NCBI GenBank assembly: GCA_028695415.1
Contig: JAQVIY010000001.1
Coordinates: 46,784-110,783, forward strand
Source of the DNA: Minisyncoccota bacterium
Lineage (GTDB): Bacteria; Patescibacteriota; Minisyncoccia; Phycocordibacterales; Phycocordibacteraceae
Length of the DNA stretch: 64,000 bases
Direction of reading: 5' to 3'
Below the pieces are notes generated by a model that was not told where the DNA came from, did no database searches, and saw only the letters and a list, made by a program, of their open reading frames with translations. A program made the translations under genes and the position numbers. Below are positions 3,360-53,805 of the stretch, piece after piece (within the stretch, counting starts at the first letter, position 1; each line of letters begins with the position of its first letter).

Positions 3360-5363
3360 ATGGCAAATCATGAGAATTCTCTCGTGGCCAAATTTGGGCA
3401 CGAAAAGCGATGGGTTAATTGGAAGTACGAAGAGCGAGACGGGAAAATTACCAAGGTGCCGTATGCGGTTAACGGCAAAAGGGCTTCTAGCGTTGACTCT
3501 TCCACGTGGAGCACTTATGCCGAAGTTTCCAGGATAAGTAGCAACGTAGGGATTATCTTCACCGAGGATCAACGCCTCCTTGGGATCGATATAGACCACG
3601 TTGTTGAAGATGGTGTGGTGAGCGACGATATTCAGCGCTTTATAGACGCTGCGGAAACATATACGGAAATCTCGCCCAGCGGCACAGGCCTGCACCTGTT
3701 CTTGGCGGTAACAGAGCCTCTCTCACTGACAAAGCACAAGAAAGCGCCCTACGAGCTGTATACCTCAAAACGGTTCTTCACGGTCACTAGGAACGAGTTC
3801 ACGGACTCGCCTGTGCGGACTGTTACGCCTGAAGAGGCTCTGAGGCTTCTCGCAATCATTGGTTATCCGTGGAACAAAGATGAGCCGGAAGCGCCAGCGG
3901 CGGTGCTTGGCGGCGGTGTCAGGCCACCTGCGTTGCCGCCCATGGCCGACGAGGAGCTTCTTGAGAAGATGTTTGCCTCGAAGAATGGGCACACGATAAG
4001 AGCTCTCTACCGAGGCGATATATCGAGCTACGAAAACGACGATTCTCGTGCTGACATGGCACTCTGCGCCCATCTCGCCTATTGGACGCACAATGACGGG
4101 GCTCAGATGGAACGTATATGGCTTGCCTCAGGGCTTGGACAAAGAGAAAAGACTCAGGGCCGGAAGGATTACCGTGAGCGAACGATTGCAGCCGCGATAG
4201 AGGGTAATGCCCAAGCGCGGTCTGAGAAGAACGTGCCTCAAAAGAGCCATGGGGCACAATCGGTTGGCGCGCAAGCGATAACCATCCGTATGTCGGATGT
4301 GCAGCCTAAGCCTATTGAATGGCTGTGGTTCGGACGTATAGCTCTCGGCAAGCTCACGATCATTGCCGGAGATCCGGGGCTCGGTAAGAGCCTTACTACT
4401 ATCGACATGGCGGCAAGGGTGTCGAAGGGCTGTGCATGGCCACTCGAAGGCTCTCTAGCGCCCCTGGGTAACGTGGTATTCCTCTCTGCTGAAGACGATC
4501 CGGGAGACACAATCAGGCCTCGTCTTGACGCTGCGGGTGCGGATTGTTCGCGCGTGCATGTAATTCAGGCGATCAGGGACGCGAATGAGGAAGGCAGACC
4601 GATGGAGCGAATGTTCTCGTTCAGAAAAGATATTACCGTCCTCGAAGATCTGTTGCGTACGCTCTCGGACTGCCGTCTTCTCGTGATTGACCCTGTGTCG
4701 GCATATTTGGATGGAACGAAAAGTCACGAGAACGCAGAGGTGCGACAAGTCCTGGCTCCGCTTGCTAAGCTGGCGGCGGATTTCGGTGTCGCGGTTGTCG
4801 TGGTGCAGCACCTCAACAAAAACAGCGGAGATAACGCCATGTACCGCTCAATGGGCTCTATCGGCTTTGTTGCTGCTGCCAGAGCCGCCTATATCGTTAC
4901 CAAGGACAAGGATAACCAGGAGCGTAGGCTGGTGATGCCGATCAAAAATAATCTCGCGAAAGATACGCTCGGTCTGGCCTACTCGGTCGTCGAGGCCTCA
5001 AACAGAGCTCCTATGCTCGTGTGGGAGTCTGAGGCAGTAACAATTACGGCCGACGAAGCATTGGGCCGCTCAGACTCCGATGAAGAAAAGACAAAAATTG
5101 AATGGGCGATACAGGTGCTGGAGGTTGTGCTCGCGGACGGCCCGGTTGCGGCGACAGAAGTTAATCGTGAAGCAAGACAGGCTGGCATATCCCAAAGCAC
5201 GCTGCACCGCGCGAAGGACAAGCTAGGCGTAAAACCGAAGAAAGCCAGTTTCAAGGATGGGTGGGTATGGTCGTTGCCCAACCGCGAAGGTGTTCAGATA
5301 AGCGAAGATGCCACACCTAAAGAGGTGGGTATCTTGGGGATGGATGAACACCTTGGTGAATAG
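3360..5363 (+). CDS. Fused DNA primase/polymerase (Prim-Pol N-terminus, PriCT-like middle) plus RecA-like/AAA_25 RepA-type helicase, C-terminal wHTH. Typical of phage/plasmid/satellite replicons
   Basis: DxD motif GIDIDH; P-loop GDPGLGKS; VVFLSAEDD; LVIDPVSAYL; VVVVQHLNK. Confidence 0.8.
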   Translation: MANHENSLVAKFGHEKRWVNWKYEERDGKITKVPYAVNGKRASSVDSSTWSTYAEVSRISSNVGIIFTEDQRLLGIDIDHVVEDGVVSDDIQRFIDAAETYTEISPSGTGLHLFLAVTEPLSLTKHKKAPYELYTSKRFFTVTRNEFTDSPVRTVTPEEALRLLAIIGYPWNKDEPEAPAAVLGGGVRPPALPPMADEELLEKMFASKNGHTIRALYRGDISSYENDDSRADMALCAHLAYWTHNDGAQMERIWLASGLGQREKTQGRKDYRERTIAAAIEGNAQARSEKNVPQKSHGAQSVGAQAITIRMSDVQPKPIEWLWFGRIALGKLTIIAGDPGLGKSLTTIDMAARVSKGCAWPLEGSLAPLGNVVFLSAEDDPGDTIRPRLDAAGADCSRVHVIQAIRDANEEGRPMERMFSFRKDITVLEDLLRTLSDCRLLVIDPVSAYLDGTKSHENAEVRQVLAPLAKLAADFGVAVVVVQHLNKNSGDNAMYRSMGSIGFVAAARAAYIVTKDKDNQERRLVMPIKNNLAKDTLGLAYSVVEASNRAPMLVWESEAVTITADEALGRSDSDEEKTKIEWAIQVLEVVLADGPVAATEVNREARQAGISQSTLHRAKDKLGVKPKKASFKDGWVWSLPNREGVQISEDATPKEVGILGMDEHLGE

Positions 5364-5374
5364 GAGGAATTCAC

Positions 5375-5560
5375 TTGGGCATGATCGATCTGGTCGAATT
5401 CAAGCAGTTACTGAGCCCCGAGGTGCGTGCTTTGCCTGAAAAGGAGATTGAGCGTATCCGTGAGCTTCAGTACGGCTTTGCTAACGCCATATTTGAGATG
5501 TGGCTTAGGGATCGTCACACCTCGTCCATCGAAGAAAATGAGAACAACACTAAAAGCTGA
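5375..5560 (+). CDS. Small hypothetical protein
   Basis: 61-aa ORF between primase and recombinase. Confidence 0.25.
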   Translation: MGMIDLVEFKQLLSPEVRALPEKEIERIRELQYGFANAIFEMWLRDRHTSSIEENENNTKS

Positions 5561-5703
5561 TATACTACGTAGGTACACAACTTCATACCGAGAGCTTTTT
5601 TATTGCCTGATTAAAATAATCGGGCACGGAAAGGGGCTAAGGTTGTTCAGCGTCTCTCGGGATGTTGTGTACACCAACCTTAGTCCCTTTTTGTATTCCA
5701 CTT

Positions 5704-7566
5704 ATGAAGTCTGCTGAAAAAATAAATGTCATCGGGCACTGCCGAGTGAGCTCTTCAAAACAAGCGCAAGAAGGCGAAAGCCTTAGCGTGCAAGAAGGAA
5801 TCGTTCGTGCGCACGCCGAGCGGAATAATTGGAACATGGTGAAGGTGTGGCACGAGAGCTACTCGGGCCGAAAAGAAACTCGGCCAGTATTTAACGAAAT
5901 TCTTACTTACCTCGATTCTCATCCGAGGCAGATTGAATACTATGTCTTTCGTACCATTGATCGCTTCACGCGCGGTGGTACGGGGATGTATGACCAAATG
6001 AGGAAGGAGCTCTTGAAGCGTGGTGTGGCAATGGTTGATACGAGCGGAATGATTCAGAAATCAAAAAATACTCTTGAGGATTTAGATTTTGAATATTCAT
6101 GGAGCCGTCATTCTCCGAGCGAGATCACGGAAGTTGTGGTAGCGACCACTTCAAAACAAGAAGTAACCAATATTGAGACTCGTATGATTGGGCAAGAGAT
6201 CCGATTAACGCAACAGGGGTACAAGGTTCGACACGCGCAAGACGGCTTCTTGAATACCAAGATTTACGATACCGACGGCAAGAAGCGCACGGTGATGATT
6301 GAGGACCCTATCCGCGCCAAGTATCTTCAGGCAATGTTCGAACTTCGTGCAGAAGGTCAGTTGAGTGATTCAGAGATCGTGAGTCGGGTAAATGCAATGG
6401 GATACCGCAGTCGAGCGCACAAGAAATGGGACAAGAGCCACACGAGAATCCTTGGCGCGGGCGGTGGAAAACTGCTTACGGTGAAGCATTTGCAGGAAAT
6501 CATCCAGCGCCCCATTTACGCAGGTTTAATTTGCGAGAAATGGACGAAGCATAAGCCGGTGAAGGCAAAGTTTGACGGCCTAGTGTCCGTGAACATTTTC
6601 AACAAGGCAAATAGAGGAAAGGTCTTCATAGAAGAAAAAGATGATGGGTCTTATGGAATTCTGTACGACCACTATCCCGATCGTGTCGTCGTGAAGAGAA
6701 TGCGAGACAACCCGCTATTCCCGTATAAGTCGGTGGTGATGTGCCCAGAATGCGGGAAGCCGTTCATGGGAAGTCGCTCACGAAGCAAGAGCGGCAATCC
6801 CGTGCCGTATTACCATTGTTCGCGCAAACACAAGTGGATTGGGTTCAATAAGTCTGCGTTTGAGAAGACAATCGAAGATTATGCGAACCGGCTTTATTTC
6901 TTGCCGGACGAGACAACGAGCATGAAGGCCTCGCTGAAGCACCTGTATAACGAGCGTAAGTCAGAAATCGCTCGTGAGACGGTATCTATGGAGGAAAATG
7001 TCGCTGAGCTAAAGATCCAAAAGAAAGAGGCTTTAGAGGCGTTTAAGGCAGCCACAAGTGAGGTAGTGCGCCGCGAGCTCGAAAGAGATATTGAGCAGCT
7101 TGAGACTCGCATCAACGGATCCGGCGCGGAGCACGCAAGTCTCAAGATTACGGAGTCAGATATCGATGCTTTCATGGAGTACGCAAAAGGCATAATGGAA
7201 CACCCAGCAAAAGCGCTATTGAATACAGTAAATGCGCGCCATCAGGAGTCTCTTTACTCTGTGGTATTCGACGAACTGCCATCTATTACGGAGATGGCTA
7301 ATGGAACACCTAAATTGTCTTGGATTTTCAGGCTTTCTGAGGAATCTCAGACACCTAAATCTGTGTTGGCGGGCCCACTAGGAATCGAACCTAGGCTGTC
7401 GGTTTTGGAGACCGATGTACTACCATTATACGATGGACCCTTCGCACTCACGTACGATACCAGACGCTGGGATGGTTTACCACGAGCGATTTATCCCAAA
7501 CGCAGTCGAGGGGAGTCGAGTGGGGAAAGCCGTCCCAGGCAGGGCGATGCGCGGTATGATAGAGAT
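5704..7566 (+). CDS. Large serine recombinase (resolvase N-domain, recombinase domain, zinc ribbon, coiled coil). No in-frame stop: the frame reads antisense through tRNA-Trp and into the next gene
   Basis: Catalytic motif INVIGHCRVSSSKQ; zinc ribbon CPECGKPF...YYHCSRKHKW. ORF track shows a continuous frame 5662..8466. Confidence 0.8.
7367..7440 (-). tRNA. tRNA-Trp (anticodon CCA), CCA encoded
   Basis: Minus strand GGGTCCA TC GTAT AATGGTA GTAC A TCGGT CTCCAAA ACCGA CAGC CTAGG TTCGATT CCTAG TGGGCCC G CCA. Cloverleaf folds, G73. Confidence 0.85.
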
Positions 7567-21711: not shown

Positions 21712-22842
21712 ATGGACATTATGAAGTCGTTTTGGCAAGGCTTACCTAAGCCGTTTTTCGCGATGGCACCGATGAAGGATGTCACAGACGCGGCGTTTCG
21801 CGCGCTCGTCGCTCGACGAGGCGCGCCAGATGTGTACTGGACAGAGTTCGTTTCTGCTGATGGCCTCTACCACACACGCGAGATACAGAAGATGAAAGAC
21901 GAGGACCCTACGTCGCTCGGAAGCTATGAAGGGCACAGGAATCCGCTCATGCGCGATCTCGTGTATGGAGCCGATCAGCACCCCATTGTCGCACCACAAG
22001 GGCACTTCCATTTTCCTAACCCTGGGTACAGGGAAGGAAAATTGGTCGCACCACAAGGGCACTTCCATTTTCCTAGCCCTGGGTACAGGGAAGGAAAATT
22101 GGTCGCACAGATATTCTCGGACAAGCCGGAGATGATAGCGTATGCGGCGAAGCTCGTCGCCGAACTCGGTTTCGACGGCGTCGATATAAATATGGGCTGC
22201 CCTGACCGCTCGGTCGAGAAGCAGGGTGCCGGTGCCGCGCTTATCAAGAGTCCTGAAAAGGCGCGTGCGATTATTCGCGCCGCAAAAGCAGCGAGCAATC
22301 TACCGGTCTCGGTGAAGACGCGGGTAGGGTACAACAAAGAGACACTCGACGAGTGGCTTCCGGCGCTTCTTGAAGAAGCGCCGGCGGCTATCACGCTTCA
22401 TTTGCGCACGCGCAAGGAGCTCTCGCTCGTATCGGCTCATTGGGAGCTTATGAAGAGGGCGGTGGAGCTGCGCGATCAGATCGCGCCCGAGGTGCTCCTC
22501 ATCGGCAATGGCGACGTGACGAGCGTTGCGGAAGGGAAGCGGCTCGCAAAAGAGACGAGATGCGACGGCATTATGATTGGCCGCGGTATGTTCGGCAACC
22601 CGTGGGTTTTCGCGGGCCGCACGTCGGACGATACGCCGCTCGCAGAGAAGCTCGCGGCTCTGATTGAGCTCGCGCACGGCTTTGAGAATCTCTCTCCGCC
22701 AAAGAATTTCGCGATATTGAAAAAACACATCAAGGCGTTCGTGACCGGCTTTGATGGCGCGGCGCACTTCCGCGCGAAGCTGATGGAGGCGGAGAATGTC
22801 ACCGAGCTCGAGCAAATACTGAAAACATCTAGCTACGTATAA
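21712..22842 (+). CDS. dus: tRNA-dihydrouridine synthase (Dus family) containing an in-frame 2x20-aa tandem duplication
   Basis: APMKDVTDAAFR; DINMGCP; duplicated APQGHFHFP(N/S)PGYREGKLV inserted in the HPI..QIFSDKPE loop. Confidence 0.85.
   Translation: MDIMKSFWQGLPKPFFAMAPMKDVTDAAFRALVARRGAPDVYWTEFVSADGLYHTREIQKMKDEDPTSLGSYEGHRNPLMRDLVYGADQHPIVAPQGHFHFPNPGYREGKLVAPQGHFHFPSPGYREGKLVAQIFSDKPEMIAYAAKLVAELGFDGVDINMGCPDRSVEKQGAGAALIKSPEKARAIIRAAKAASNLPVSVKTRVGYNKETLDEWLPALLEEAPAAITLHLRTRKELSLVSAHWELMKRAVELRDQIAPEVLLIGNGDVTSVAEGKRLAKETRCDGIMIGRGMFGNPWVFAGRTSDDTPLAEKLAALIELAHGFENLSPPKNFAILKKHIKAFVTGFDGAAHFRAKLMEAENVTELEQILKTSSYV
21989..22108 (+). repeat. Tandem 60-bp duplication (2 copies, 1 mismatch) inside dus
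   Basis: gcaccacaagggcacttccattttccta(a/g)ccctgggtacagggaaggaaaattggtc repeated twice. Confidence 0.8.
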
Positions 22843-22876
22843 AAAAGCAACCGCCCGAGTACAACCGGGCGGTTTT
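22609..22876 (+). repeat. Direct repeat copy 1: dus 3' end plus terminator (~268 bp), about 90% identical to 23555..23822
   Basis: Visible alignment of both copies, including the ccgcccg..ccgggcggtttt terminator hairpin. Confidence 0.8.
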
Positions 22877-22887
22877 CAAGAAGCGGC

Positions 22888-23451
22888 TTAGCGGATGAGA
22901 ATGATCGCGGTTATCACGACATTCAGCAGTCCGGCACCGACGGCGACAAAGATATTCGCGAAATCACGTTTCTCTGCGCCGAGCACCACGAAGAGGCAAG
23001 AGACGATTGTCAGAAGCCACAGCCAGAGCGTGCCCGGCTGGGGCTCGGACCAGTAGTCCTTCATAAGCGGCACGAACGAGATCCACATCGCCGTCATGTA
23101 GGCCCACTGCGCCCGAAGTGCATCGAGCGTAATCCAGAGTACGATTGCAACGACCACCAGGGCGGTGGACGAATATTCCGTCCATCTCCAGACTGATGGT
23201 TGGTCGCTTGTGGCGACGACGACGAAGATCAGGAATGCAGCCATCGCCCATCCGATCTGCAGGTACGGCTTTTTGTTGCCACCGCGCCATGCGAGAACGA
23301 GCCCCAGCAGGTCAAGGACAAACACCATCATCCACGTCGCGACATTTTGCTTGACGTTCGTCGTGTACAGCATCCACGCATAGTACGTGGGAATCGCGAA
23401 GCCCATGAGGCCGCCGATCAGTATTGCTTGGGACTTTAGAACTCGTTCCAC
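22888..23451 (-). CDS. Integral membrane protein (about 6 TM), GTG start. Cargo of the dus 3'-end insertion
   Basis: Hydrophobic profile; RBS gaggag 6 nt upstream; promoter TTGACA-17-TACGAT within the palindrome at 23520..23535. Confidence 0.5.
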   Translation of the reverse strand: MERVLKSQAILIGGLMGFAIPTYYAWMLYTTNVKQNVATWMMVFVLDLLGLVLAWRGGNKKPYLQIGWAMAAFLIFVVVATSDQPSVWRWTEYSSTALVVVAIVLWITLDALRAQWAYMTAMWISFVPLMKDYWSEPQPGTLWLWLLTIVSCLFVVLGAEKRDFANIFVAVGAGLLNVVITAIILIR

Positions 23452-23554
23452 GAGTGTCTCCTCAAGAGGTTGAAAGGACAGAGCTACCTACTAGCTTGCG
23501 GTGAATCGTACACCATATGACTTGACATGTCAAGTTCCTGTCTACCGCCTGCTA

Positions 23555-23822
23555 TTCGCGGGTCGTACGAGCGAAGACACGCAGCTCGCAGAGAAGCTCG
23601 CGGCTCTGATTGAGCTCGCGCACGGCTTTGAGAATCTCTCTCCGCCAAAGAATTTCGCGATATTGAAAAAACACATCAAGGCGTTCGTGACCGGCTTCGA
23701 CGGCGCAGCGCACTTGCGCGCGAAGTTGATGGAGGCCGAGAACGCGAGCGAGCTTGAGCAGGCGCTTAAAGTTTCCGGTCATATATAAAAAACGACCGCC
23801 CGTTTAGAACCGGGCGGTTTTA
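23555..23822 (+). pseudogene. Duplicated dus 3' fragment (pseudo-ORF 23501..23788) plus duplicated terminator; direct repeat copy 2
   Basis: Translation FAGRTSEDTQLAEKLAALIELAHGFENLSPPKNFAILKKHIKAFVTGFDGAAHLRAKLMEAEN matches the Dus C-terminus. Confidence 0.75.
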
Positions 23823-23841
23823 GATTACTGACTAACGACGG

Positions 23842-24276
23842 TCAGCCGGCGAGGAGAAAGACCGAAAGGATTGTGGTCCCCAGTCCCACCCACTGCTTGG
23901 CGGAAAGAGTCTCTCCGCTCACTAGATAGTTGAACAAGGGCGAGACGACCACCATCATGATGATGACCGTCATGATGAACTGTCCAGTCGGCACCTGCGG
24001 GTCGGCAGCCTTCATCGAATAGTAGTAGACGGCTGCTCCATTGATTGCACCCGCGGCAAGCAGGATCAAACAGGCATACAGGGTTGGTATGGGTTGGACC
24101 CGTATCGAGGTGTACGCGAACGCGATGCCTCCGATCGCTGAGCCAATGATGACGATGGTGTTGACCCATGCCCCGGTCGCTTGGGAGTATTTCCCGACAA
24201 TCGGCCACATGACAAATGCGGTGCCGATACCGAGCGCCCACAGAATGTGGGACAGATTGAGAGCTGGTGTGTTCAT
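23842..24276 (-). CDS. EamA/DMT-like small membrane transporter (4 TM)
   Basis: Four hydrophobic helices, 144 aa. Confidence 0.5.
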   Translation of the reverse strand: MNTPALNLSHILWALGIGTAFVMWPIVGKYSQATGAWVNTIVIIGSAIGGIAFAYTSIRVQPIPTLYACLILLAAGAINGAAVYYYSMKAADPQVPTGQFIMTVIIMMVVVSPLFNYLVSGETLSAKQWVGLGTTILSVFLLAG

Positions 24277-24405
24277 GTGAACCTCCGTGGTGTCGAAGAA
24301 TCGAAGAAAGAATCTGGCGTACAGAATTACACATTAGTTTTGATTTGTCAAATCCTTCGTTTTCACTCGCTATCCGCGATCGCTTGCACCTTGTATACTT
24401 CCCGT

Positions 24406-25434
24406 ATGGCGCACCAGTCTCTCTATCGGACGTATCGTCCAGCAACCTTCGCAGAGGTCGTGGGGCAGGAGCAGGTGACGAAGCCGCTTGAAGAAGCGGT
24501 GAGGTCGAAGAACATCGGACATGCCTACCTCTTCTCGGGCAGCCGCGGGTTGGGGAAGACTTCTGTCGCGCGCATCTTCGCAGACGCGATCGGCTGTACC
24601 GGGAACGATCTCTACGAGATAGACGCGGCGAGTAACAACAGTGTCGAGGATATTCGCACGCTTACCGAGGGCGTCTACACGCTTCCGTTCAACTCGCCTT
24701 ATAAGGTCTACATTCTCGACGAGGTGCATATGCTCTCGAAGGGCGCGTGGAACGCGTTCTTGAAGACGCTTGAGGAACCGCCGGCACACGCGGTGTTCAT
24801 CTTGGCGACGACTGAACTCGAGAAAGTGCCGGAGACGGTGCAGTCGCGTTGCCAAGTTTTTGAATTCAAGAAGCCGACGCGAGCCGTGCTCGCTAGAATG
24901 GTCGCGGCAGTGGCAAAGAAGGAAGGATACACACTCGCGCCCGACGCCGCCGAGCTTATTGCGCTCCTTGCTGACGGTTCATATCGCGACGCGCTCTCGG
25001 TGTTGCAAAAGGTCATCGCAGGTACGACCGATAAAAAACTAGAACGGAAGGAGGTAGAAGCGACAACTGGCGCACCGAAGCGCGAGTTGGTGCATGCGCT
25101 TATAAGCGCGCTCGCCAAGGGCGAGCGCGGGGGCGCACTCACCGCGATAGAGAAGGCGGCAAAGGCAGATGTCGATATGCGACTCTTCTTGGAGCTCGTT
25201 CTTGAAGCGCTCCGCGCAACACTTCTCATCCGTTACGCACCAGACCTCCGTACCTCGCTTACCGAAGAGCTCGGCGCAGACGAATTCGCCGCGCTCGAGG
25301 CATTCGCGAAAGAGAAGGGCATTACGCATGCGACCATGCTCGCATTCCTTACCGCCGCCGATCGTATCCGCTACGCACCGATTCCTGCGCTGCCACTCGA
25401 ATTAGCGGTTTTGGAGTTGTTCCCCGAAGCATAA
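24406..25434 (+). CDS. dnaX: DNA polymerase III subunit gamma/tau (short form)
   Basis: YRPATFAEVVGQE; P-loop GSRGLGKTS; DEVHML; SRCQ. Confidence 0.85.
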   Translation: MAHQSLYRTYRPATFAEVVGQEQVTKPLEEAVRSKNIGHAYLFSGSRGLGKTSVARIFADAIGCTGNDLYEIDAASNNSVEDIRTLTEGVYTLPFNSPYKVYILDEVHMLSKGAWNAFLKTLEEPPAHAVFILATTELEKVPETVQSRCQVFEFKKPTRAVLARMVAAVAKKEGYTLAPDAAELIALLADGSYRDALSVLQKVIAGTTDKKLERKEVEATTGAPKRELVHALISALAKGERGGALTAIEKAAKADVDMRLFLELVLEALRATLLIRYAPDLRTSLTEELGADEFAALEAFAKEKGITHATMLAFLTAADRIRYAPIPALPLELAVLELFPEA

Positions 25435-25547
25435 GTTACCCAGACCTATTCCCTGGCAACATAACACCATGAGAATATGCACACGCATCAAATTTAGAAG
25501 AGGTGTTGCACTGCTATACTGTACGTGGTAGTAATCAATTAACATTT

Positions 25548-25811
25548 ATGTCTGCTGAAGATACCCAAAAAGCCATACGTTCTGCATATGAGTACCTTGT
25601 AGGCGCCCTTGTGGCGACTGGCGTTAAGCCTGAGAACACGTCAAACTTTAGAGTCGAGGAGGCTGAAATGAACGATAAGGGGAACTTTAGAATAACTTTG
25701 AGCTATGAGGTGGTTGGGCAATTTGCCTTTGAAAGAGAGAAGGAATTGAAGGATTTTGAGATACAGCCAGACGGTAAGGTGCTTTGGATGAAAATCCGTC
25801 CTAAGGCATAG
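25548..25811 (+). CDS. Small hypothetical protein (possible partner/antitoxin of the downstream PIN protein)
   Basis: AT-rich islet; 4-nt gap to the next gene. Confidence 0.35.
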   Translation: MSAEDTQKAIRSAYEYLVGALVATGVKPENTSNFRVEEAEMNDKGNFRITLSYEVVGQFAFEREKELKDFEIQPDGKVLWMKIRPKA

Positions 25812-25814
25812 TTT

Positions 25815-26342
25815 GTGTATTCGTATCGCGAGATACAGGACTTTTGTCGTAAATATACAGGCAAAAGACCGTTAATTATAGACGCGAACCTACTGGTCTT
25901 ATTTATAGTAGGGAGCTGTGATCCGGACTATATCATCCATTGTAATAAAACAAGAACCTATTCAAAAGAAGACTTTGAACTGCTTTTGAAAATAATAAAG
26001 TGCTTCAAGCCTGAAATCGTTGTAACCCCACACGTTCTTGCCGAAGTATCAAACCTGTACAAAGGAATGCCTGGGCACAAACACGACCTTTATTTCCGCA
26101 GGTTTATAGAAAGACTTCGGGGGTACCAAGAGGAGCATATAAGTCTACAAAGCATCATCGATTTTGACCTTAAGGTTGTCGTCCGTCTCGGAATACCCGA
26201 TGTGGCAGTAGTAGAGGCTGGTCGTTTACAAAATGCCGTGATAATAAGCGCTGATTTTGGATTAGTAGACTTCGCTTTAAGAAAAGGCATTCCTGCAATT
26301 CACTTTACGAGTGTTAGACTAGGAGGAGCACTCCCAAACTAA
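25815..26342 (+). CDS. PIN-domain protein (VapC-like ribonuclease fold)
   Basis: Four acidic PIN positions: LIIDANLL, HVLAEVSNL, GIPDVAVVE, IISADFGL. Confidence 0.55.
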   Translation: MYSYREIQDFCRKYTGKRPLIIDANLLVLFIVGSCDPDYIIHCNKTRTYSKEDFELLLKIIKCFKPEIVVTPHVLAEVSNLYKGMPGHKHDLYFRRFIERLRGYQEEHISLQSIIDFDLKVVVRLGIPDVAVVEAGRLQNAVIISADFGLVDFALRKGIPAIHFTSVRLGGALPN

Positions 26343-26449
26343 AAATGAACAAAGCCGACTTCCTCTCTTCGCTCGAGAGGTGAAGGTCGGATCAAGCACG
26401 ACTCTCAACAGGAGAATCAACGGATGGGTTTGTGGTATTGTTGCCGCAT

Positions 26450-26522
26450 TGGGGGGTGGTGTAACTGGTAACACGTCTGCCTTTGGAGCAGAAGACTCTA
26501 GGATCGTTCCCTAGCCCCCCAG
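26450..26522 (+). tRNA. tRNA-Gln (anticodon UUG), U1:A72, G73
   Basis: TGGGGGG TG GTGT AACTGGTA ACAC G TCTGC CTTTGGA GCAGA AGACT CTAGG ATCGTTC CCTAG CCCCCCA G. T-loop atypical. Confidence 0.6.
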
Positions 26523-26623
26523 CAACTGAGCGAGAGCGAAGGCGTACTGAGGCGAGCACGCCGAAGTACAGAGCGAAGTGCATGTCGAAGGGTCAACTTC
26601 CGCCATAGGAGGCGATAAGTGGA

Positions 26624-27346
26624 TTAAGGTTCCGAAAGGACACAGCCTGAATAGGTAGTAGCGGAACCTTCAGTGATGAAGGCGGTGTCGCCCTTGTTCC
26701 AGAAGACGAATGATTCGTCGGGGGTGGCGTAGCGCGCGCCGGAGCCTGAGAGGGCGCGCGGGACAGAGAGCGCGCGGCCGTCGCTGAGTTTCAAATCCAC
26801 CTGGCGATCGTCGCCGATGTAGAAAGTGGCGGTGACGCTCTTGTTATTCTCACAGGCGAAGGTCGCAACCTTGGGGATGATCTGCGAGAAGAGCGAGAGG
26901 GTTACATTGCAGGGACACTCGGAGGGAGCATTCTTTGGTACGACGGTGTAGTCGATTTTGAAGCGCGTGAGAATAATCGAGTTGCCCTTGCGGTATCCTG
27001 TTTGCCCGCCAACGTGACCGCCTGCGGCAAGCTCGTTCGCCACCTGCCAACCGAGCCCTTTCAATTTCTGATCGTAATATTGCTCGAAGGGCGTGAAGAT
27101 GTTCCCCGGGTCCATCGTGGTGCCGATCGTGTCGGACGTGATGCTCACACCGGCATAGGTCGTCGTGCCGATGACGAAGCTTTCGGGCGCGGACGCGCCC
27201 CAGGCGATCTGGTCGTAGAGCGGATACAGGTCTTGCGCTATCCTTGGCGATTGCGGTGCGAGTGCCGGGCGCGCCCCGGGAAGCATGTACCAAATACCGG
27301 CCGCGATTGCGATAGCGACGAACGCGAAGATGGTGGTGTTTTTCAT
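26624..27346 (-). CDS. Secreted protein with C-terminal MliC-like (lysozyme inhibitor) domain
   Basis: N-terminal signal anchor; C-terminus FACE...SDGRALSVPRALSGSGARYATPDESFVFWNKGD resembles the MliC signature. Confidence 0.45.
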   Translation of the reverse strand: MKNTTIFAFVAIAIAAGIWYMLPGARPALAPQSPRIAQDLYPLYDQIAWGASAPESFVIGTTTYAGVSITSDTIGTTMDPGNIFTPFEQYYDQKLKGLGWQVANELAAGGHVGGQTGYRKGNSIILTRFKIDYTVVPKNAPSECPCNVTLSLFSQIIPKVATFACENNKSVTATFYIGDDRQVDLKLSDGRALSVPRALSGSGARYATPDESFVFWNKGDTAFITEGSATTYSGCVLSEP

Positions 27347-27550
27347 ACAGACTAAGTGTACCGCCTATTGTGGAGGCAAAGATGGGCCGGAGTATACTGA
27401 AGGGGATGAAATGGGGAGTACTGATCTTCGTGATTTTGGCCGCTTTCAGCGGTTGGTATTGGCGGGCAAGACAGACGCCATCGGTTGGAGTCCTCGACGG
27501 GGGGTCAGTTTGAGATAGGCTTGGCGCCCGAGGAGTATTAGAATGAACAT

Positions 27551-27841
27551 ATGGATCAACTAGAACAATTGAGAAAAGAGGTTGAAGCTATTCGCACACG
27601 AAACTCGCGGGTCGAGGCTGATAAGGCTTGGGAGGTTAGCGCATTTCGCAAGATTCTTATCTTGCTCACTACGTACGTACTCGCTTCGCTCACGATGTAT
27701 GCAATGGGAGTACCAAATTTTTACCTCAGTTCGCTAATCCCGGCGTTGGGATTTTTCCTCTCAACACTGACATTTCCGGCGGTGAAGAAATGGTGGATTC
27801 GAAGATTCCTAATGAACCCAGGAGTGAGTGACGATATATGA
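27551..27841 (+). CDS. Small membrane protein (2 TM)
   Basis: 96-aa ORF, two hydrophobic helices. Confidence 0.4.
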   Translation: MDQLEQLRKEVEAIRTRNSRVEADKAWEVSAFRKILILLTTYVLASLTMYAMGVPNFYLSSLIPALGFFLSTLTFPAVKKWWIRRFLMNPGVSDDI

Positions 27842-28290
27842 ACGAAATAACGCTTCACAAACAATGGGTCGTTAAGGCCCCTCTGGAGGATGTGTTCAGG
27901 GTAATGACCGACTTCGAGAAATTTCCGGAGCATTTCCCCAAGGTCGCCGAAGCGATACGAGTCAACAAGCGAGAAGGGAACTATCTGGAGATGAAAGCGA
28001 CCGTGCGCTCCTTCGGCAGGAGCTTCCGGGTGAAGATGAATACTCGCATTCTCCCGGGCAAAGGATTCATCTCGGACAACGACAGTTATCAGTTCGGGAC
28101 TTCGGGACACGAGGAGCTCCTGCTCTCTCCGCACGCTGAAGGGACGCTCGTTGACTACACTTACCGCGTCACCATTCATAAGAAGTGGCTACGCATAATC
28201 GCTGTGCCGCTCCTGCGCTGGTATTCGATGAAATACTGGGAAGTGGCAGTCATTGACGAGCTCAAAAAGCTTCTCGAAGGGAAAGGGTAA
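27838..28290 (+). CDS. SRPBCC (START/Bet v1-like) family protein
   Basis: 150-aa ORF, 4-nt overlap with the upstream gene. Confidence 0.5.
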   Translation: MNEITLHKQWVVKAPLEDVFRVMTDFEKFPEHFPKVAEAIRVNKREGNYLEMKATVRSFGRSFRVKMNTRILPGKGFISDNDSYQFGTSGHEELLLSPHAEGTLVDYTYRVTIHKKWLRIIAVPLLRWYSMKYWEVAVIDELKKLLEGKG

Positions 28291-28314
28291 GTTCCAAGGG
28301 TGTAAAATGATGGA

Positions 28315-28716
28315 ATGAAGACGTCTGAACAGTATCGCTCATATCGGAAGCCGTCGTGGGCTCCCCCGGCGCGGCTCTTTGGCCCGGTGTGGATACTCCT
28401 GTACGCAATCATCGCCGTATCGTTCGGCTATGTGGGCTACCTGTGGTTCCATGCCGTCGTTCCCACTCTGGTCGCCCTCCCGTTTGCCCTCAACCTAATC
28501 TTCAATCTCCTCTTCACCACCTTCCAATTCAAGTGGCGCAACTTCATCCTCGCGGCACTCGACATGGTCCTCGTCTGGCTCACGCTCGCGTGGGCGCTGT
28601 GGGTCATACTGCCGTTCGCTCCTTGGGTGGCGTACAGTAATCTGCCGTATCTCGCATGGGTGACCTTCGCGACGGTGCTCCAGCTCACGGTCACCGCGAT
28701 GAACCGAACATGCTAG
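28315..28716 (+). CDS. tspO: TspO/MBR family protein, short (lacks the usual first TM)
   Basis: YRSYRKPSWAPP...FGPVWILLY signature. Confidence 0.6.
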   Translation: MKTSEQYRSYRKPSWAPPARLFGPVWILLYAIIAVSFGYVGYLWFHAVVPTLVALPFALNLIFNLLFTTFQFKWRNFILAALDMVLVWLTLAWALWVILPFAPWVAYSNLPYLAWVTFATVLQLTVTAMNRTC

Positions 28717-28958
28717 TGGACGTGCGGACGAGGGCAGAATACGAGGCAGGACATCTCGCAGACGCGAAGAATGTGCCGGTGGAAGACATCATGGCAGGGA
28801 ATCTGGGCGTGCTTACGGGCGTGCCGCAGGACACGCCCCTACGGCTCTACTGCCGCTCCGGCGCACGAGCGAATTATGCGCGCCAGTTCCTCCAATCGGT
28901 CGGATTTTCAGACGTGGTGAATCTCGGTAGCCTAGAGGACGCGGCAGCTACAGTCTGA
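28710..28958 (+). CDS. Single-domain rhodanese-like protein, N-terminally short; overlaps tspO stop by 7 nt
   Basis: LVDVRTRAEYEAGHLADAKNVP...LYCRSGARA active-site Cys loop. Confidence 0.6.
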   Translation: MLVDVRTRAEYEAGHLADAKNVPVEDIMAGNLGVLTGVPQDTPLRLYCRSGARANYARQFLQSVGFSDVVNLGSLEDAAATV

Positions 28959-28959
28959 C

Positions 28960-28995
28960 TTGACATAGGCAATTCTGTGGTGTATTATACACCAC
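28960..28995 (+). promoter_or_regulatory. Sigma70-like promoter TTGACA-17-TATTAT with an 8-bp inverted repeat (GTGGTGTA tta TACACCAC) overlapping the -10: candidate operator
   Basis: Perfect arms at 28977..28984 and 28988..28995. Confidence 0.45.
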
Positions 28996-29020
28996 AATCA
29001 TCTAGCAAGGGGGGACAGTC

Positions 29021-52224: not shown

Positions 52225-52298
52225 GCGCTCCTAGCTCAGCTGGTTAGAGCGTTCGCCTCACACGCGAAAGGTCAGGGGTTCGAGTCCCTTGGAGCGCA
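52225..52298 (+). tRNA. tRNA-Val (anticodon CAC)
   Basis: GCGCTCC TA GCTC AGCTGGTTA GAGC G TTCGC CTCACAC GCGAA AGGTC AGGGG TTCGAGT CCCTT GGAGCGC A. Confidence 0.85.
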
Positions 52299-52426
52299 CA
52301 AGAAGACTGGGAAACCGGGCTTCTTGATGCACTAGGGGACTCGAAGGCCGGAGGCTAACGAGCCGAGGCGGGGTCGCGCAGATTTCCAGCAGGAAATCAT
52401 GTGTGACCGAGTCCCTTGGAGCGCAC
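52299..52426 (+). repeat. tRNA-Val trailer insert (108 nt) ending in a perfect 19-nt direct repeat of the tRNA 3' end (cgagtcccttggagcgcac at 52408..52426 = 52281..52299)
   Basis: Contains conserved motif cgaaggccggaggctaacgagccgaggcggggtcgcgcag. Confidence 0.75.
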
Positions 52427-52443
52427 TGGGAGGTGTTCTGTGT

Positions 52444-52514
52444 CGGGCCGGAGTATGCCGGTAGTACGCACGCTTCGGGTGCGTGTAGACCGGGTTCAAT
52501 TCCCGGCGGCCCGA
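52444..52514 (+). tRNA. tRNA-Pro (anticodon CGG), C1:G72
   Basis: CGGGCCG GA GTAT GCCGGTA GTAC G CACGC TTCGGGT GCGTG TAGA CCGGG TTCAATT CCCGG CGGCCCG A. Confidence 0.75.
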
Positions 52515-53257
52515 CAAAGAACATCTCCGAATAATACAGAGAGTTTGTTTTCTGGATAAATATCGTTTGGATAAATCTCAACGAGTCTATAACCAAGCTT
52601 TTTGGCAAGCGAACGCTTTCTTTTGATATTCTTGTCGTAAACTTCTTGTACTCCAGCGAGTCCGAAAAACTCGACTAGGATATCGAAATGTATCTTGAAA
52701 TCAGCCGTCAGTCTCGTATCCCCATATGGATAATTTCGTTCGTGTAGAATACAGTTGCTCGTAAACCAATCGTCGATAATCTTTTCGGTGAACGAATCGC
52801 AATCATGTCCGTCTGTGGCTGTGAATTTTTTCGCAAACAGAACAGGATTCGTCTCAAAGCCCGCTTGTTTGATGGCGTTATTCCAGCTTCCGAAGTTTGC
52901 AGCAAAAGCATCCCACTGATTGAACTCACGCTTGAGTGGAATGCGTCCGTTTAGTACATAAAAATCTCGGATCTTCTTGAGAAGGTCTTCACTCGAGTAC
53001 TTCTTTCGATAGGGTGCAAGACGTTCTCCGACAATCTTTTTTTCTGTTGCGCTCATCCGATGGTAATTCCTTCGATTCTCAATCGCCTGTTTTTGCAGAA
53101 GAGAAATCTGAACATCTTTGGTCCACTGATGTGCGATGCTTATGCTTACGCTTAGTTGCTTTGCTATTTCGCGATGCGTCAATCCTTCAGAACGGAGGAA
53201 GCGCGCGTTCTCTTTAGTCGAGGCAGAATGGCGGACTCCGTTTCTTGCTTTCAGCAT
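52496..53257 (-). CDS. HTH-domain protein with C-terminal Vsr/DUF559-like PD-(D/E)xK endonuclease domain; homing-endonuclease-like selfish gene in an AT-rich insert between tRNA genes
   Basis: N-terminal LTHREIAKQLSVSISIAHQW (HTH). C-terminal TADFKIHFDILVEFFGLAGVQEVYDKNIKRKRSLAKKLGYRLVEI matches the DUF559 pattern D..h.IE.DG...H....D..R...L...G..V.R. Low GC. 3' end overlaps tRNA-Pro. Confidence 0.55.
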   Translation of the reverse strand: MLKARNGVRHSASTKENARFLRSEGLTHREIAKQLSVSISIAHQWTKDVQISLLQKQAIENRRNYHRMSATEKKIVGERLAPYRKKYSSEDLLKKIRDFYVLNGRIPLKREFNQWDAFAANFGSWNNAIKQAGFETNPVLFAKKFTATDGHDCDSFTEKIIDDWFTSNCILHERNYPYGDTRLTADFKIHFDILVEFFGLAGVQEVYDKNIKRKRSLAKKLGYRLVEIYPNDIYPENKLSVLFGDVLCRAAGN

Positions 53258-53283
53258 ACTTAAATTATAACGTGGTATCCTGC

Positions 53284-53357
53284 GTCATATAATCGGGCTA
53301 TCGTATAATGGTAGTACGCATGGCTGGGGGTCATGCAGCCTGGGTTCGATTCCCAGT
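53284..53357 (+). tRNA. tRNA-Pro (anticodon GGG), CCA encoded
   Basis: CGGGCTA TC GTAT AATGGTA GTAC G CATGG CTGGGGG TCATG CAGC CTGGG TTCGATT CCCAG TAGCCCG A CCA. Confidence 0.85.
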
Positions 53358-53542
53358 AGCCCGACCAAAAACGTTCGACGTTTTTTCGGGCTACAGCAAG
53401 CGTAGCTTGCGACGGGAATCGAAAGCCGGAGCGATGTTCGGCTAGCAAGCCGAACCGCGAGGCGGGGCCGAGAAAATCCGTGAGTGACGACGAACGGATT
53501 ATTCGTGGCCGAAACCGTATTCGGGGTTCCCAGTAGCCCGAC
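53358..53542 (+). repeat. tRNA-Pro trailer insert (169 nt) ending in a 16-nt direct repeat of the tRNA 3' end (ttcccagtagcccgac at 53527..53542 = 53340..53355)
   Basis: Contains conserved motif cgaaagccggagcgat...cgcgaggcggggccg. Confidence 0.75.
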
Positions 53543-53660
53543 AAATAAGCTTCGTGTTAGAATCGTCCATGCAGTAATTTGTATCGGGCCTGTACGACAG
53601 CGTACATACCCTTCGTTCGGAGCAAGAGAATATGCAGACACATTCTCTTGTCCTCACTTC

Positions 53661-53733
53661 GGGCCTGTAGCTCACTTGGTAGAGCGCGTCATTCGCATTG
53701 ACGAGGTAGGGGGTTCGATTCCCCCCAGGTCCA
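53661..53733 (+). tRNA. tRNA-Ala (anticodon CGC), G3:U70
   Basis: GGGCCTG TA GCTC ACTTGGTA GAGC G CGTCA TTCGCAT TGACG AGGTA GGGGG TTCGATT CCCCC CAGGTCC A. Confidence 0.85.
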
Positions 53734-53805
53734 CAAAATAACTAGAGTACTCACGACTATATTTTGTGAGAGTCCTGAAGGTATTCCTGAAGGGGTCCAT
53801 AAAAA

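What the first reader, a model, noticed from the sequence alone, without database searches (positions are those of the whole stretch)
25440..26522. AT-rich two-gene islet (small protein plus PIN-domain protein) between dnaX and tRNA-Gln
GC drops to about 40% across 25440..26350. Gene 2 has all four PIN acidic residues, so it is a VapC-like RNase. Gene 1 (88 aa from ATG 25548), separated by 4 nt, has no recognisable antitoxin fold (not AbrB, RHH or Phd-like by eye). It could be an atypical or novel TA or defence pair acquired horizontally next to a tRNA.
Basis: partly seen in the sequence, partly recalled or inferred. Interest (0 to 1): 0.6.

Follow-up and report, generated by a model that had tools for sequence, protein, structure and literature searches.

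The report
PepSY-like inhibitor plus PIN nuclease pair
A small AT-rich insert in a Candidatus Pacebacteria genome carries a PIN-type nuclease gene that, here and in about a hundred other loci, is almost always preceded by a small unannotated PepSY-like (cystatin-fold) protein. This looks like a toxin-antitoxin-type module whose "antitoxin" is a folded enzyme-inhibitor domain rather than a DNA-binding protein.

Summary
Window 25436-26350 has 41.9% GC against 54.4% for the window, and it carries two co-oriented genes between dnaX and tRNA-Gln.

- **Gene 2** (GTG 25815-26342, 175 aa) is a divergent PIN nuclease. Its AF2 model matches only PIN structures. D23, E77 and D129 are invariant in 61 relatives, and D147 is conserved in at least 90%.
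- **Gene 1** (25548-25811, 87 aa, acidic) has no DNA-binding antitoxin fold. It is one helix on a four-stranded sheet (pLDDT 93.8), a cystatin/PepSY-like fold. Half of its relatives match Pfam PepSY.

The pairing is near-obligate:
- All 5 genome loci and both viral contigs found through gene 1 have the PIN gene next door.
- Of 75 metagenome loci found through the PIN motif with room upstream, 71 have a detectable partner. 3 of the other 4 (2 distinct sequences) have a divergent helix-plus-strands look-alike.
- The two proteins co-evolve (r = 0.95). The genes usually overlap by 4 nt.

The pair occurs in CPR bacteria, Acidobacteria and cyanobacterial plasmids, where it sits among classical TA modules inside BREX-related defence operons. 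It was AT-richer than its flanks in all 16 loci checked.

The best reading is a mobile TA or abortive-infection-type module with a new antitoxin type. Toxicity and neutralisation are untested. I found no PepSY-PIN link in the literature searched.

The parts
25436..25547 (+). AT-rich leader between the dnaX stop and gene 1. It holds one promoter-like site, TTTAGA-16 nt-TATACT with a TG, at 25493-25520.
   Evidence: One site was found against 1.7 expected in shuffles, so it is only a candidate. No palindromic operator was found here.
25548..25811 (+). Gene 1: an 87-aa acidic (pI 5.2) cytoplasmic PepSY-like, cystatin-fold protein. It is the proposed inhibitor (antitoxin) of the PIN nuclease.
25815..26342 (+). 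Gene 2: a 175-aa basic (pI 8.7) PIN-domain nuclease with a GTG start. It is the proposed toxin or effector. Catalytic codons: D23 at 25881-25883, E77 at 26043-26045, D129 at 26199-26201, D147 at 26253-26255. The extra invariant E106 is at 26130-26132.
   Evidence: AF2 pLDDT is 78.8. All top Foldseek PDB matches are PIN proteins: 1o4w, PAE2754, HARP, VapC. Invariant residues are listed. 41 of 61 relatives match Pfam PIN. The family profile matches PDB 3i8o at E = 0.0011. The N-terminal 57 residues are conserved in relatives, which supports the GTG start.
26355..26390 (+). G+C-rich hairpin just after gene 2. It may be a transcript end, but it has no T tract.
   Evidence: 13-pair stem, but the region's z-score is only -1.4. 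The terminator scan found nothing. Weak evidence.
26450..26523 (+). tRNA-Gln(ttg). This is the right-hand landmark, not part of the module.
   Evidence: Rfam tRNA, 59.9 bits.

Best explanation
The islet is a self-contained, horizontally mobile two-gene module of the toxin-antitoxin or abortive-infection kind.

Gene 2 is a metal-dependent PIN endonuclease, most likely an RNase as in VapC-type toxins. Gene 1 is a small, stably folded, acidic PepSY-like (cystatin-fold) protein. It is made first from the same transcript and keeps the nuclease inactive by binding it directly, much as PepSY propeptides, cystatins and immunity proteins block their enzymes. Gene 1 has no DNA-binding domain, so it probably does not repress its own promoter the way VapB does. 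Activation would need the inhibitor to be lost or displaced, for example by proteolysis, by a halt in its synthesis, or by a phage or stress signal.

Shown here:
- the fold of both proteins
- the conserved catalytic residues
- the fixed gene order and translational coupling
- near-obligate co-occurrence and co-evolution
- a patchy, mobile, AT-rich distribution

Inferred, not shown:
- that the nuclease is toxic
- that its substrate is RNA
- that gene 1 neutralises it
- what triggers it
For: - PIN fold and active site.
- Gene 1 fold and PepSY link.
- Co-occurrence: 5 of 5 genome loci and 2 of 2 viral contigs found through gene 1 have the PIN gene directly downstream. 71 of 75 metagenome loci found through the PIN motif alone, with room upstream, have the partner. 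Three of the four exceptions (L081, and L095/L096 with identical sequence) have a divergent helix-plus-strands ORF in the same place.
- Gene order is always partner then PIN. The junction is a 4-nt overlap in 29 of 39 loci, mostly at ATG starts. In the CPR clade the gap is 2-19 nt. A 4-nt ATGA overlap is the classic type II TA layout (PMC5499597).
- Co-evolution: the distance matrices of the two proteins correlate at r = 0.95, and 0 of 2000 permutations reached that value.
- Charge: the partner has pI 5.2 and the PIN protein pI 8.7.
- Mobility: the pair sits in unrelated contexts. It is found alone among housekeeping genes, beside serine recombinases and R-M genes, on predicted viral contigs and on cyanobacterial plasmids. 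It had lower GC than its flanks in 16 of 16 loci checked.
- Company: in cyanobacterial plasmids it lies between the DUF499 and DUF1156 genes of a BREX-related system. RelE, MazF/RHH, DUF5615-PIN/DUF433 and macro/DUF4433 modules occupy the same region. PIN RNases embedded in such loci have been proposed as backup suicidal effectors (PMC12839542).
- Decay pattern: 10 loci have a broken PIN gene with an intact partner. Only 1 has an intact PIN gene with no candidate partner.
Against: - There are no experimental data on toxicity, neutralisation or substrate.
- The partner lacks the DNA-binding domain and the disordered toxin-binding tail of classical type II antitoxins (PMC4803016). Its confident compact fold argues against a proteolytically labile antitoxin.
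- No complex model could be made, so binding is inferred from genetics only.
- The decay asymmetry of 10:1 is not significant once the two-fold longer PIN gene is allowed for (one-sided binomial p of about 0.075 by hand). Metagenome frameshift errors also contribute.
- PADLOC, NCBIfam and PHROGs have no model for either protein, so no curated system supports the call.
- In several CPR genomes the pair sits alone among housekeeping genes. That is also compatible with a cellular role.
Confidence: 0.6

Rival explanations
1. A dedicated anti-phage (abortive-infection) effector. The PepSY-like protein would be primarily a sensor or decoy that binds a phage protein and then releases or activates the PIN nuclease. 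Plasmid or genome addiction would not be its role. This overlaps with the main explanation but differs on the trigger and the biological role.
For: - The cyanobacterial copies sit inside BREX-related (DUF499/DUF1156/helicase) operons on plasmids.
- PMC12839542 proposes embedded PIN, HEPN and Schlafen RNases as backup suicidal effectors.
- CPR copies lie beside R-M genes and recombinases.
- PepSY/cystatin folds are protein-binding modules.
Against: - No PADLOC model matches either protein.
- Several copies stand alone among housekeeping genes, including the one in this window.
- The pair also occurs on predicted viral contigs and in a phage-like context. That fits a selfish module as well as it fits host defence.
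- No phage-challenge data exist.
Confidence: 0.2
2. A heteromeric cellular RNase. The PepSY-like protein would be a required subunit, for substrate recognition or as a chaperone, of a PIN nuclease working in RNA processing, possibly of tRNA precursors.
For: - Co-occurrence and co-evolution fit any obligate complex.
- Foldseek matches include the protein-only RNase P (HARP) at E of about 1e-3.
- A tRNA gene lies directly downstream on the same strand in 3 of about 15 CPR-clade contexts.
- Neighbours in CPR genomes are often translation or tRNA genes such as trmD, miaA and thrS.
Against: - Distribution is patchy across three phyla, and the direct search found few relatives.
- The pair had a deviant low GC in all 16 loci checked.
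- It occurs on plasmids, on viral contigs and among defence genes.
- PIN pseudogenes are frequent.
- The adjacent tRNAs differ each time (Gln; Thr; Ile-Phe-Ser), and no tRNA lies nearby in the 60+ soil-clade loci scanned.
- No family member matched Pfam PIN_5, the HARP family.
Confidence: 0.12
3. The two ORFs are a chance or decaying remnant with no function in this genome. The low GC alone would generate long ORFs.
For: GenBank truncates gene 2 and another gene caller omits it. Some related loci carry PIN pseudogenes.
Against: - Both ORFs in the window are full length with every invariant residue present.
- Relatives at 25-75% identity keep both proteins, the gene order and the coupling.
- The gene 1 model has pLDDT 93.8.
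Confidence: 0.03

Closest known systems
VapBC (PIN toxin with VapB antitoxin), type II toxin-antitoxin systems
   Same: - PIN-fold nuclease with the D/E/D/D acidic site.
- A small acidic partner encoded immediately upstream, overlapping or nearly touching.
- Patchy distribution on mobile DNA, with presence on plasmids and next to other TA modules.
   Different: - VapB antitoxins have an N-terminal AbrB, RHH, Phd/YefM or HTH DNA-binding domain and a flexible C-terminal toxin-binding tail (PMC4803016; PMC5499597). Gene 1 is a single compact PepSY-like, cystatin-fold domain with neither feature.
- The PIN protein is longer, at 175 aa, with an N-terminal helix and a helical insert. It carries family-specific invariant residues: H73-V-L-A-E-V-S-N80 and E106.
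PepSY domain (Pfam PF03413): M4 peptidase propeptides, YpeB, YpmB, UipA
   Same: - Several family members pass the Pfam gathering score over the whole 60-position model.
- PepSY is proposed to be an enzyme-inhibitor domain (Yeats et al. 2004, as cited in PMC6393860).
   Different: - By established knowledge, known PepSY domains are secreted, periplasmic or membrane-anchored, and are linked to peptidases or spore-cortex lysis.
- This family has no signal peptide or membrane segment (read from the sequence). It is a stand-alone cytoplasmic protein and is tied to a nuclease.
- The window's own protein does not match the Pfam model directly.
Folded direct inhibitors of toxic enzymes that do not bind DNA: barstar-barnase, immunity proteins of polymorphic toxins and T6SS effectors, and epsilon in omega-epsilon-zeta
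   Different: No secretion or delivery domain is attached to the PIN protein. No third regulator gene is present in the window. There is no sequence relationship to those inhibitors. The barstar and polymorphic-toxin comparison comes from my own knowledge and was not tested here.
HARP, the minimal protein-only RNase P (PIN_5 family)
   Same: A PIN fold of similar size. Foldseek E is 1.4e-3 to 1e-2.
   Different: No member matched Pfam PIN_5. TM-scores are only about 0.4. HARP has no obligate upstream partner, by established knowledge.

Membership tests
PIN domain superfamily | Alpha/beta/alpha fold with a central parallel sheet, matching solved PIN structures | tested here: met
   AF2 model with pLDDT 78.8. 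All the best Foldseek PDB matches are PIN proteins, with probability 0.98-1.00 for the first 30, best E 1.9e-4 and TM up to 0.66 on the target.
PIN domain superfamily | Four conserved acidic residues: after strand 1, at the start of the helix after strand 2, at a helix N-terminus, and after strand 4 | tested here: met
   D23, E77 and D129 are invariant and D147 is at least 90% conserved in 61 sequences. They sit at the expected secondary-structure positions. E77, D129 and D147 align to the corresponding E/D/D residues of PDB 3i8o; D23 and D129 align to 1o4w (D147 pairs with Asn there).
PIN domain superfamily | Sequence match to Pfam PF01850 at the curated threshold | tested here: inconclusive
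   The window protein scores 12.9 bits against a cut-off of 23.6, E = 0.17. 41 of 61 family members match at E <= 0.01, best 3.4e-9.
VapBC type II toxin-antitoxin | [quoted passage not shown] | tested here: not met
VapBC type II toxin-antitoxin | Antitoxin gene upstream of the toxin gene in one operon, overlapping or nearly so | tested here: met
   The spacer is 3 nt in the window. There is a 4-nt overlap in 29 of 39 related loci.
VapBC type II toxin-antitoxin | The toxin arrests growth, the antitoxin neutralises it by binding, and the complex represses its own promoter | not testable with these tools
   This needs expression and binding experiments. No operator-like palindrome was found upstream.
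PepSY domain (PF03413) | Sequence match at the Pfam gathering score | tested here: inconclusive
   The window protein has no match. Relatives P0078, P0081, P0089, P0098 and P0130 score 24.8-28.1 bits against a cut-off of 24, over model positions 2-59. 54 of 106 members match at E <= 0.01. The window protein joins them through the family profile at E = 1.7e-30.
PepSY domain (PF03413) | One alpha-helix packed on a four-stranded antiparallel sheet | tested here: met
PepSY domain (PF03413) | Extracytoplasmic location and association with a peptidase | tested here: not met
   The N-terminus is hydrophilic, with no signal peptide or membrane segment (read directly from the sequence). The constant neighbour is a PIN nuclease, not a peptidase.
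tRNA-targeted integrative genomic island | An integrase or recombinase gene, and direct repeats that duplicate the tRNA 3' end | tested here: not met
   There are only two genes and no recombinase. No flanking direct repeat was found; the one 31-nt, 71% match to the tRNA lies inside the gene 1 coding sequence. The islet is on the 5' side of the tRNA.
Catalogued anti-phage defence systems (PADLOC-DB 2.0) | A match to a system component model | tested here: not met
   There are only chance-level hits, E 0.03-0.05, to unrelated models.

The most novel reading that the evidence does not exclude
This would be an undescribed class of toxin-antitoxin or abortive-infection module. A cytoplasmic PepSY-like (cystatin-fold) protein would be the dedicated protein inhibitor of a PIN nuclease. 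That would be the first intracellular, nuclease-directed role for a PepSY-type domain, and a PIN antitoxin with no DNA-binding or disordered region. The module is spread across CPR bacteria, Acidobacteria and cyanobacteria, and it is recruited into BREX-related defence operons.
Probability: 0.5. Interest if true: 0.65.

Novelty: new variant of a known kind. Interest (0 to 1): 0.55.

Why it matters
PIN toxins are the largest TA toxin group, yet their known partners are DNA-binding antitoxins with flexible tails. A compact enzyme-inhibitor fold in that role would change three things:
- It would broaden the set of proteins accepted as antitoxins.
- It would give the PepSY domain a first cytoplasmic function.
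- It would explain hundreds of "hypothetical protein + PIN domain-containing protein" pairs that gene callers mis-annotate or miss. The window's own PIN gene is truncated in GenBank.

The family has members in cultured cyanobacteria (Nostoc sp. ATCC 53789, Allocoleopsis franciscana PCC 7113), so it can be tested directly. It also supplies a rare candidate TA or defence module for the tiny genomes of CPR bacteria and their phages. The gain is incremental rather than conceptual, because the overall logic of a nuclease plus a cognate upstream inhibitor is familiar.

Tried and rejected
- **Direct family scans** of both window proteins against Pfam, NCBIfam, PADLOC and PHROGs gave nothing usable.
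- **PDB profile search** with the gene 1 family found only chance hits to a designed protein.
- **Giant proteins** with multiple matches to the 3-sequence gene 1 profile did not match the broader family model, so I dismissed them as repeat or bias artefacts.
- **Island boundaries:** no att-like direct repeats and no terminator were found, and the single promoter-like site is at chance level. Rfam found only the tRNA in 22000-29000.
- **Empty site:** an exact look-up of DnaX returned only the same genome.
- **Phage records** held no homologue of gene 2, and a viral-contig scan with the PIN motif found none. The two viral contigs found through gene 1 have mostly unannotatable neighbours.
- **HARP/RNase P membership** was considered and rejected.
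- **Stop-codon read-through fusion:** the two genes share a frame here, but I judged this coincidental because other loci use a -1 overlap.
- **Literature:** searches for PepSY with PIN domain, VapC, PIN-like or toxin-antitoxin found no paper linking them. This covers only the held open-access library.
Full report
**1. What is in the window**

The stretch 25436-26350 is a sharp compositional dip. Its GC is 0.419, against a window mean of 0.544 (sd 0.037 for 900-nt windows). Third-position GC is 0.48 and 0.39 for the two genes, against 0.68 for the neighbouring dnaX.

- On the left, dnaX ends at 25434 (Pfam DNA_pol3_delta2, DNA_pol3_gamma3 and the lid domain).
- On the right, tRNA-Gln(ttg) lies at 26450-26523.
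- Beyond the tRNA are ordinary genes: an MliC-domain protein, an SRPBCC protein and TspO.

Two co-oriented ORFs fill the dip. Gene 1 runs from ATG 25548 to TAG 25811 and encodes 87 aa. Gene 2 runs from GTG 25815 to 26342 and encodes 175 aa. The spacer is TTT, which is 3 nt rather than 4, and an AAGG lies 8-11 nt before the GTG.

Homology names the source as a Candidatus Pacebacteria (CPR) MAG, with locus tags PHV99_00395 and PHV99_00400. GenBank calls gene 2 as only 118 aa, which by position corresponds to the internal TTG at 25986 and removes the first catalytic aspartate. A second assembly's gene caller does not call it at all. The N-terminal 57 residues are conserved in relatives, for example MYSLEEIKEFCRKY...LVIDTNLL in L008. 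The GTG start is therefore correct.

**2. Gene 2 is a divergent PIN nuclease**

The window protein itself is marginal against Pfam PIN, at E = 0.17. Three independent lines support the call.

- An AF2 model built on 13 sequences (pLDDT 78.8) finds only PIN structures at the top of the PDB. These include AF0591/1o4w at E = 1.9e-4, PAE2754, HARP, M. tuberculosis and Shigella VapC, and FitB.
- In an alignment of 61 family members, D23, E77 and D129 are invariant and D147 is at least 90% conserved. S79, N80, E106 and G126 are also invariant. The acidic residues sit where PIN residues should: D23 after strand 1, E77 early in the helix after strand 2, D129 at a helix N-terminus, and D147 after strand 4.
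- 41 of the 61 members match Pfam PIN, best E = 3.4e-9. The family profile matches the PIN domain of MJ1533 (3i8o) at E = 0.0011, with E77, D129 and D147 aligned to its E/D/D.

No member matched the HARP family, PIN_5.

**3. Gene 1 is a cytoplasmic PepSY-like, cystatin-fold protein**

A direct search found only three relatives. I noticed that the small ORFs upstream of distant PIN homologues share its pattern. A profile search built on that pattern returned 543 proteins at E <= 0.01.

- 54 of 106 aligned members match Pfam PepSY.
- Five of the ten sequences scanned individually pass the gathering score over the full model, at 24.8-28.1 bits against a cut-off of 24. These five are 62-74% identical to proteins encoded directly upstream of PIN genes.
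- The AF2 model is very confident, with pLDDT 93.8: helix 3-23 packed on four antiparallel strands.

The fold therefore fits PepSY but is not specific to it. The sequence link carries the assignment. The protein is acidic (pI 5.2) and the PIN protein is basic (pI 8.7). Gene 1 has no signal peptide, no membrane segment and no DNA-binding motif.

**4. The two genes form one unit**

- *Searching from gene 1.* All 5 loci in species-representative genomes (Kaiserbacteria, Paceibacterota, Levyibacteriota and others) and both IMG/VR contigs have the PIN gene immediately downstream.
- *Searching from gene 2.* I used only the PIN motif [PA]HVLAE[VF]SN, which returned 80 metagenome loci. 71 have a detectable PepSY-like ORF directly upstream and 5 are cut by the contig end. 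Of the other 4, L081 and L095/L096 (identical sequence) carry a divergent helix-plus-strands ORF in the same position. Only L037 has something unrelated there.
- *Layout.* Gene order never varies. The junction is a 4-nt overlap in 29 of 39 loci, mostly at ATG starts, and 2-19 nt in the CPR clade.
- *Co-evolution.* Pairwise distances of the two proteins across 40 pairs correlate at r = 0.95, and 0 of 2000 Mantel permutations reached that value.

The window holds a single copy.

**5. Distribution and context**

Members occur in three groups.
- CPR bacteria: Pacebacteria, Kaiserbacteria, Yanofskybacteria, Levybacteria.
- Soil and peat metagenome contigs; the only named members of this clade are Bryobacteraceae MAGs.
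- Cyanobacterial plasmids: Nostoc sp. ATCC 53789, Nostoc cf. commune, Leptolyngbya BL0902 and Allocoleopsis PCC 7113. RefSeq labels these "hypothetical protein" plus "PIN domain-containing protein". A fifth plasmid record, Kovacikia minuta, has a PIN match but was not examined for the partner.

Contexts are unrelated to one another.
- Alone among housekeeping genes: after holB/frr in L102, near trmD in L112, and between miaA and HIT in L118, as in the window.
- Next to R-M genes and large serine recombinases (L103-L106).
- In a phage-like contig with PrimPol/VapE and an IS1595 transposase (L008), and in a contig with Dam and HTH_36 genes (L001).
- On two predicted viral contigs.

In three cyanobacterial plasmid records examined (Nostoc sp. 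ATCC 53789, Allocoleopsis, Leptolyngbya) the pair lies next to the DUF1156 methyltransferase and/or DUF499 genes. With a helicase, these make up what PMC12839542 calls a Type-1 BREX-related system. In the Nostoc and Leptolyngbya records the same region holds RelE, MazF/RHH, DUF5615-PIN/DUF433 and macro/DUF4433 modules.

In all 16 loci examined the pair has lower GC than its flanks, by 1.5 to 16 points. L015 (0.40 against 0.56) and L018 (0.42 against 0.58) look just like the window. The AT-rich dip is thus a trait of the module, not a peculiarity of this genome.

**6. Decay pattern**

I classified non-redundant loci where both genes lie inside the contig.
- 50 have both genes intact.
- 10 have a frameshifted or truncated PIN gene with an intact partner. 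These include L008, L013 and the viral contig L101.
- 7 have an intact PIN gene but a weak or undetected partner.
  - 6 of these 7 still have a partial-match or look-alike ORF.
  - Only L037 has none.

Losing the nuclease first is what a toxin-inhibitor relation predicts. Allowing for the two-fold longer PIN gene, 10:1 gives only p of about 0.075 by a hand binomial, and assembly errors also contribute. This is suggestive only.

**7. Mechanism**

The best-supported reading is a mobile toxin-antitoxin or abortive-infection-type module.
- A translationally coupled operon makes the PepSY-like protein first.
- That protein binds and silences the PIN nuclease.
- Loss or displacement of the inhibitor frees the nuclease.

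PepSY propeptides, cystatins, latexin and the Tai3 immunity protein all appear among the fold matches, and all are direct enzyme blockers.

The family's nearly invariant residues lie on the strands: E37 and E38 on strand 1, S52 on strand 2, and K68 on strand 3. In M. tuberculosis VapBC15 the active-site metals are shared between toxin and antitoxin (PMC5499597). A conserved acidic pair reaching into the PIN pocket is therefore plausible, but this is inference.

The module departs from VapBC in its partner. Known type II antitoxins combine an HTH, RHH, AbrB or Phd/YefM DNA-binding domain with a flexible toxin-binding region (PMC4803016; PMC5499597). Gene 1 has neither, and no operator-like palindrome precedes it. 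I therefore predict no autoregulation by gene 1 and a trigger other than simple degradation of a disordered antitoxin. The substrate, RNA or DNA, is unknown.

**8. Rival explanations**

- *Dedicated anti-phage effector with gene 1 as sensor.* The BREX-related context favours this. The stand-alone copies and the viral copies do not decide it either way.
- *Cellular heteromeric RNase.* The patchy, plasmid- and virus-borne, AT-rich, pseudogene-prone distribution argues against it. One observation keeps it alive. In 3 of about 15 CPR-clade contexts a tRNA gene lies directly downstream on the same strand: Gln in the window at 108 nt; a tRNA 5 nt after the PIN stop in L001; and Ile-Phe-Ser at 127 nt in L105/L106. 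That is far more than the roughly 0.4% per locus expected from tRNA density. The tRNAs differ each time, and none was found in the more than 60 soil-clade loci or the three cyanobacterial plasmid loci scanned. I read this as an insertion-site or element-boundary effect, but it remains unexplained.

**9. The tRNA-island idea**

There is no integrase. There are no direct repeats flanking the islet, and the islet is on the 5' side of the tRNA. I could not recover an empty site, because an exact look-up of DnaX returned only the same genome. Horizontal origin therefore rests on composition and on the module's behaviour elsewhere.

**10. Novelty**

No model for either protein exists in Pfam (as a family), NCBIfam, PADLOC or PHROGs. 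RefSeq calls the partner hypothetical. Full-text searches found no paper linking PepSY with PIN, VapC, PIN-like or toxin-antitoxin function. The 2017 PIN classification lists small cyanobacteria-rich VapC-like clusters of unknown function, PIN.7 and PIN_24, which might include these PIN proteins. It does not mention PepSY. I could not check specialised TA databases.

I rate this a new variant of a known kind: a PIN toxin module with a new antitoxin type. Interest is moderate, at 0.55.

Noticed in passing
window 25986 (internal TTG) versus 25815 (GTG); L111 2144-2957: GenBank annotates gene 2 (PHV99_00400) as only 118 aa, which by position corresponds to the internal TTG at 25986 and loses the first catalytic Asp (D23). 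The gene caller of a second assembly of the same genome calls no gene there at all. Divergent AT-rich PIN genes like this one are probably under-annotated generally.
   Followed up: yes
window 26342-26450; L001 1284-1376; L105/L106 6831-7414: In 3 of about 15 CPR-clade contexts a tRNA gene lies directly downstream of the PIN gene on the same strand, and the tRNA is different each time. None was found in the more than 60 soil-clade loci or the three cyanobacterial plasmid loci scanned. This is far above chance and is unexplained. It could be an insertion hot spot, an element boundary or co-transcription.
   Followed up: partly
window 3360-7440: This looks like an integrated mobile element. It has a primase-polymerase/AAA_25 helicase (3360-5363) and a large serine recombinase (from 5662; Resolvase, Recombinase and Zn_ribbon_recom domains), and it abuts tRNA-Trp (7367-7440, - strand). 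Low-GC DNA lies at 1-2500 and 5300-6450. It appears unrelated to the islet.
   Followed up: partly
window 52350-53500: Another low-GC patch (below 0.47) lies among a cluster of tRNA genes: Val, Pro, Pro and Ala, within 52225-53734. I did not examine it.
   Followed up: no
L107-L110 (Nostoc sp. ATCC 53789 pNsp_c 33-42 kb; Allocoleopsis PCC 7113 pMIC7113.06; Leptolyngbya BL0902 plasmid 138-150 kb): The gaps between the DUF499, DUF1156-methyltransferase and helicase genes of a BREX-related system act as a landing zone for TA-type modules. Besides the PepSY-like/PIN pair they hold RelE, MazF/RHH, DUF5615-PIN/DUF433 and macro/DUF4433. In Allocoleopsis and Leptolyngbya a conserved 142-aa hypothetical gene precedes the pair, and it could be a third component there.
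   Followed up: partly
proteins P0097, P0106, P0129: JGI names several 90-aa members of the gene 1 family "serine/threonine-protein kinase RIO1". Only one member has a chance-level RIO1 hit (E = 0.0024), so this looks like a propagated mis-annotation.
   Followed up: partly
window 25548-26342: Gene 1 and gene 2 are in the same reading frame, separated only by TAG TTT, so read-through of the TAG would give a fusion protein. Other loci use a -1 overlap, so this is probably coincidence.
   Followed up: partly
window 25630-25660 versus 26465-26495: A 31-nt stretch inside gene 1 is 71% identical to the anticodon-arm region of the adjacent tRNA-Gln. It lies in conserved coding sequence and is most likely chance.
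   Followed up: no
L012-L014 (Bryobacteraceae, about 4001-4449): In these Bryobacteraceae loci the PIN gene is split over two frames, which marks it as a pseudogene. The partner is intact in L013 and L014 and also split in L012. The same broken copy is present in several samples.
   Followed up: partly
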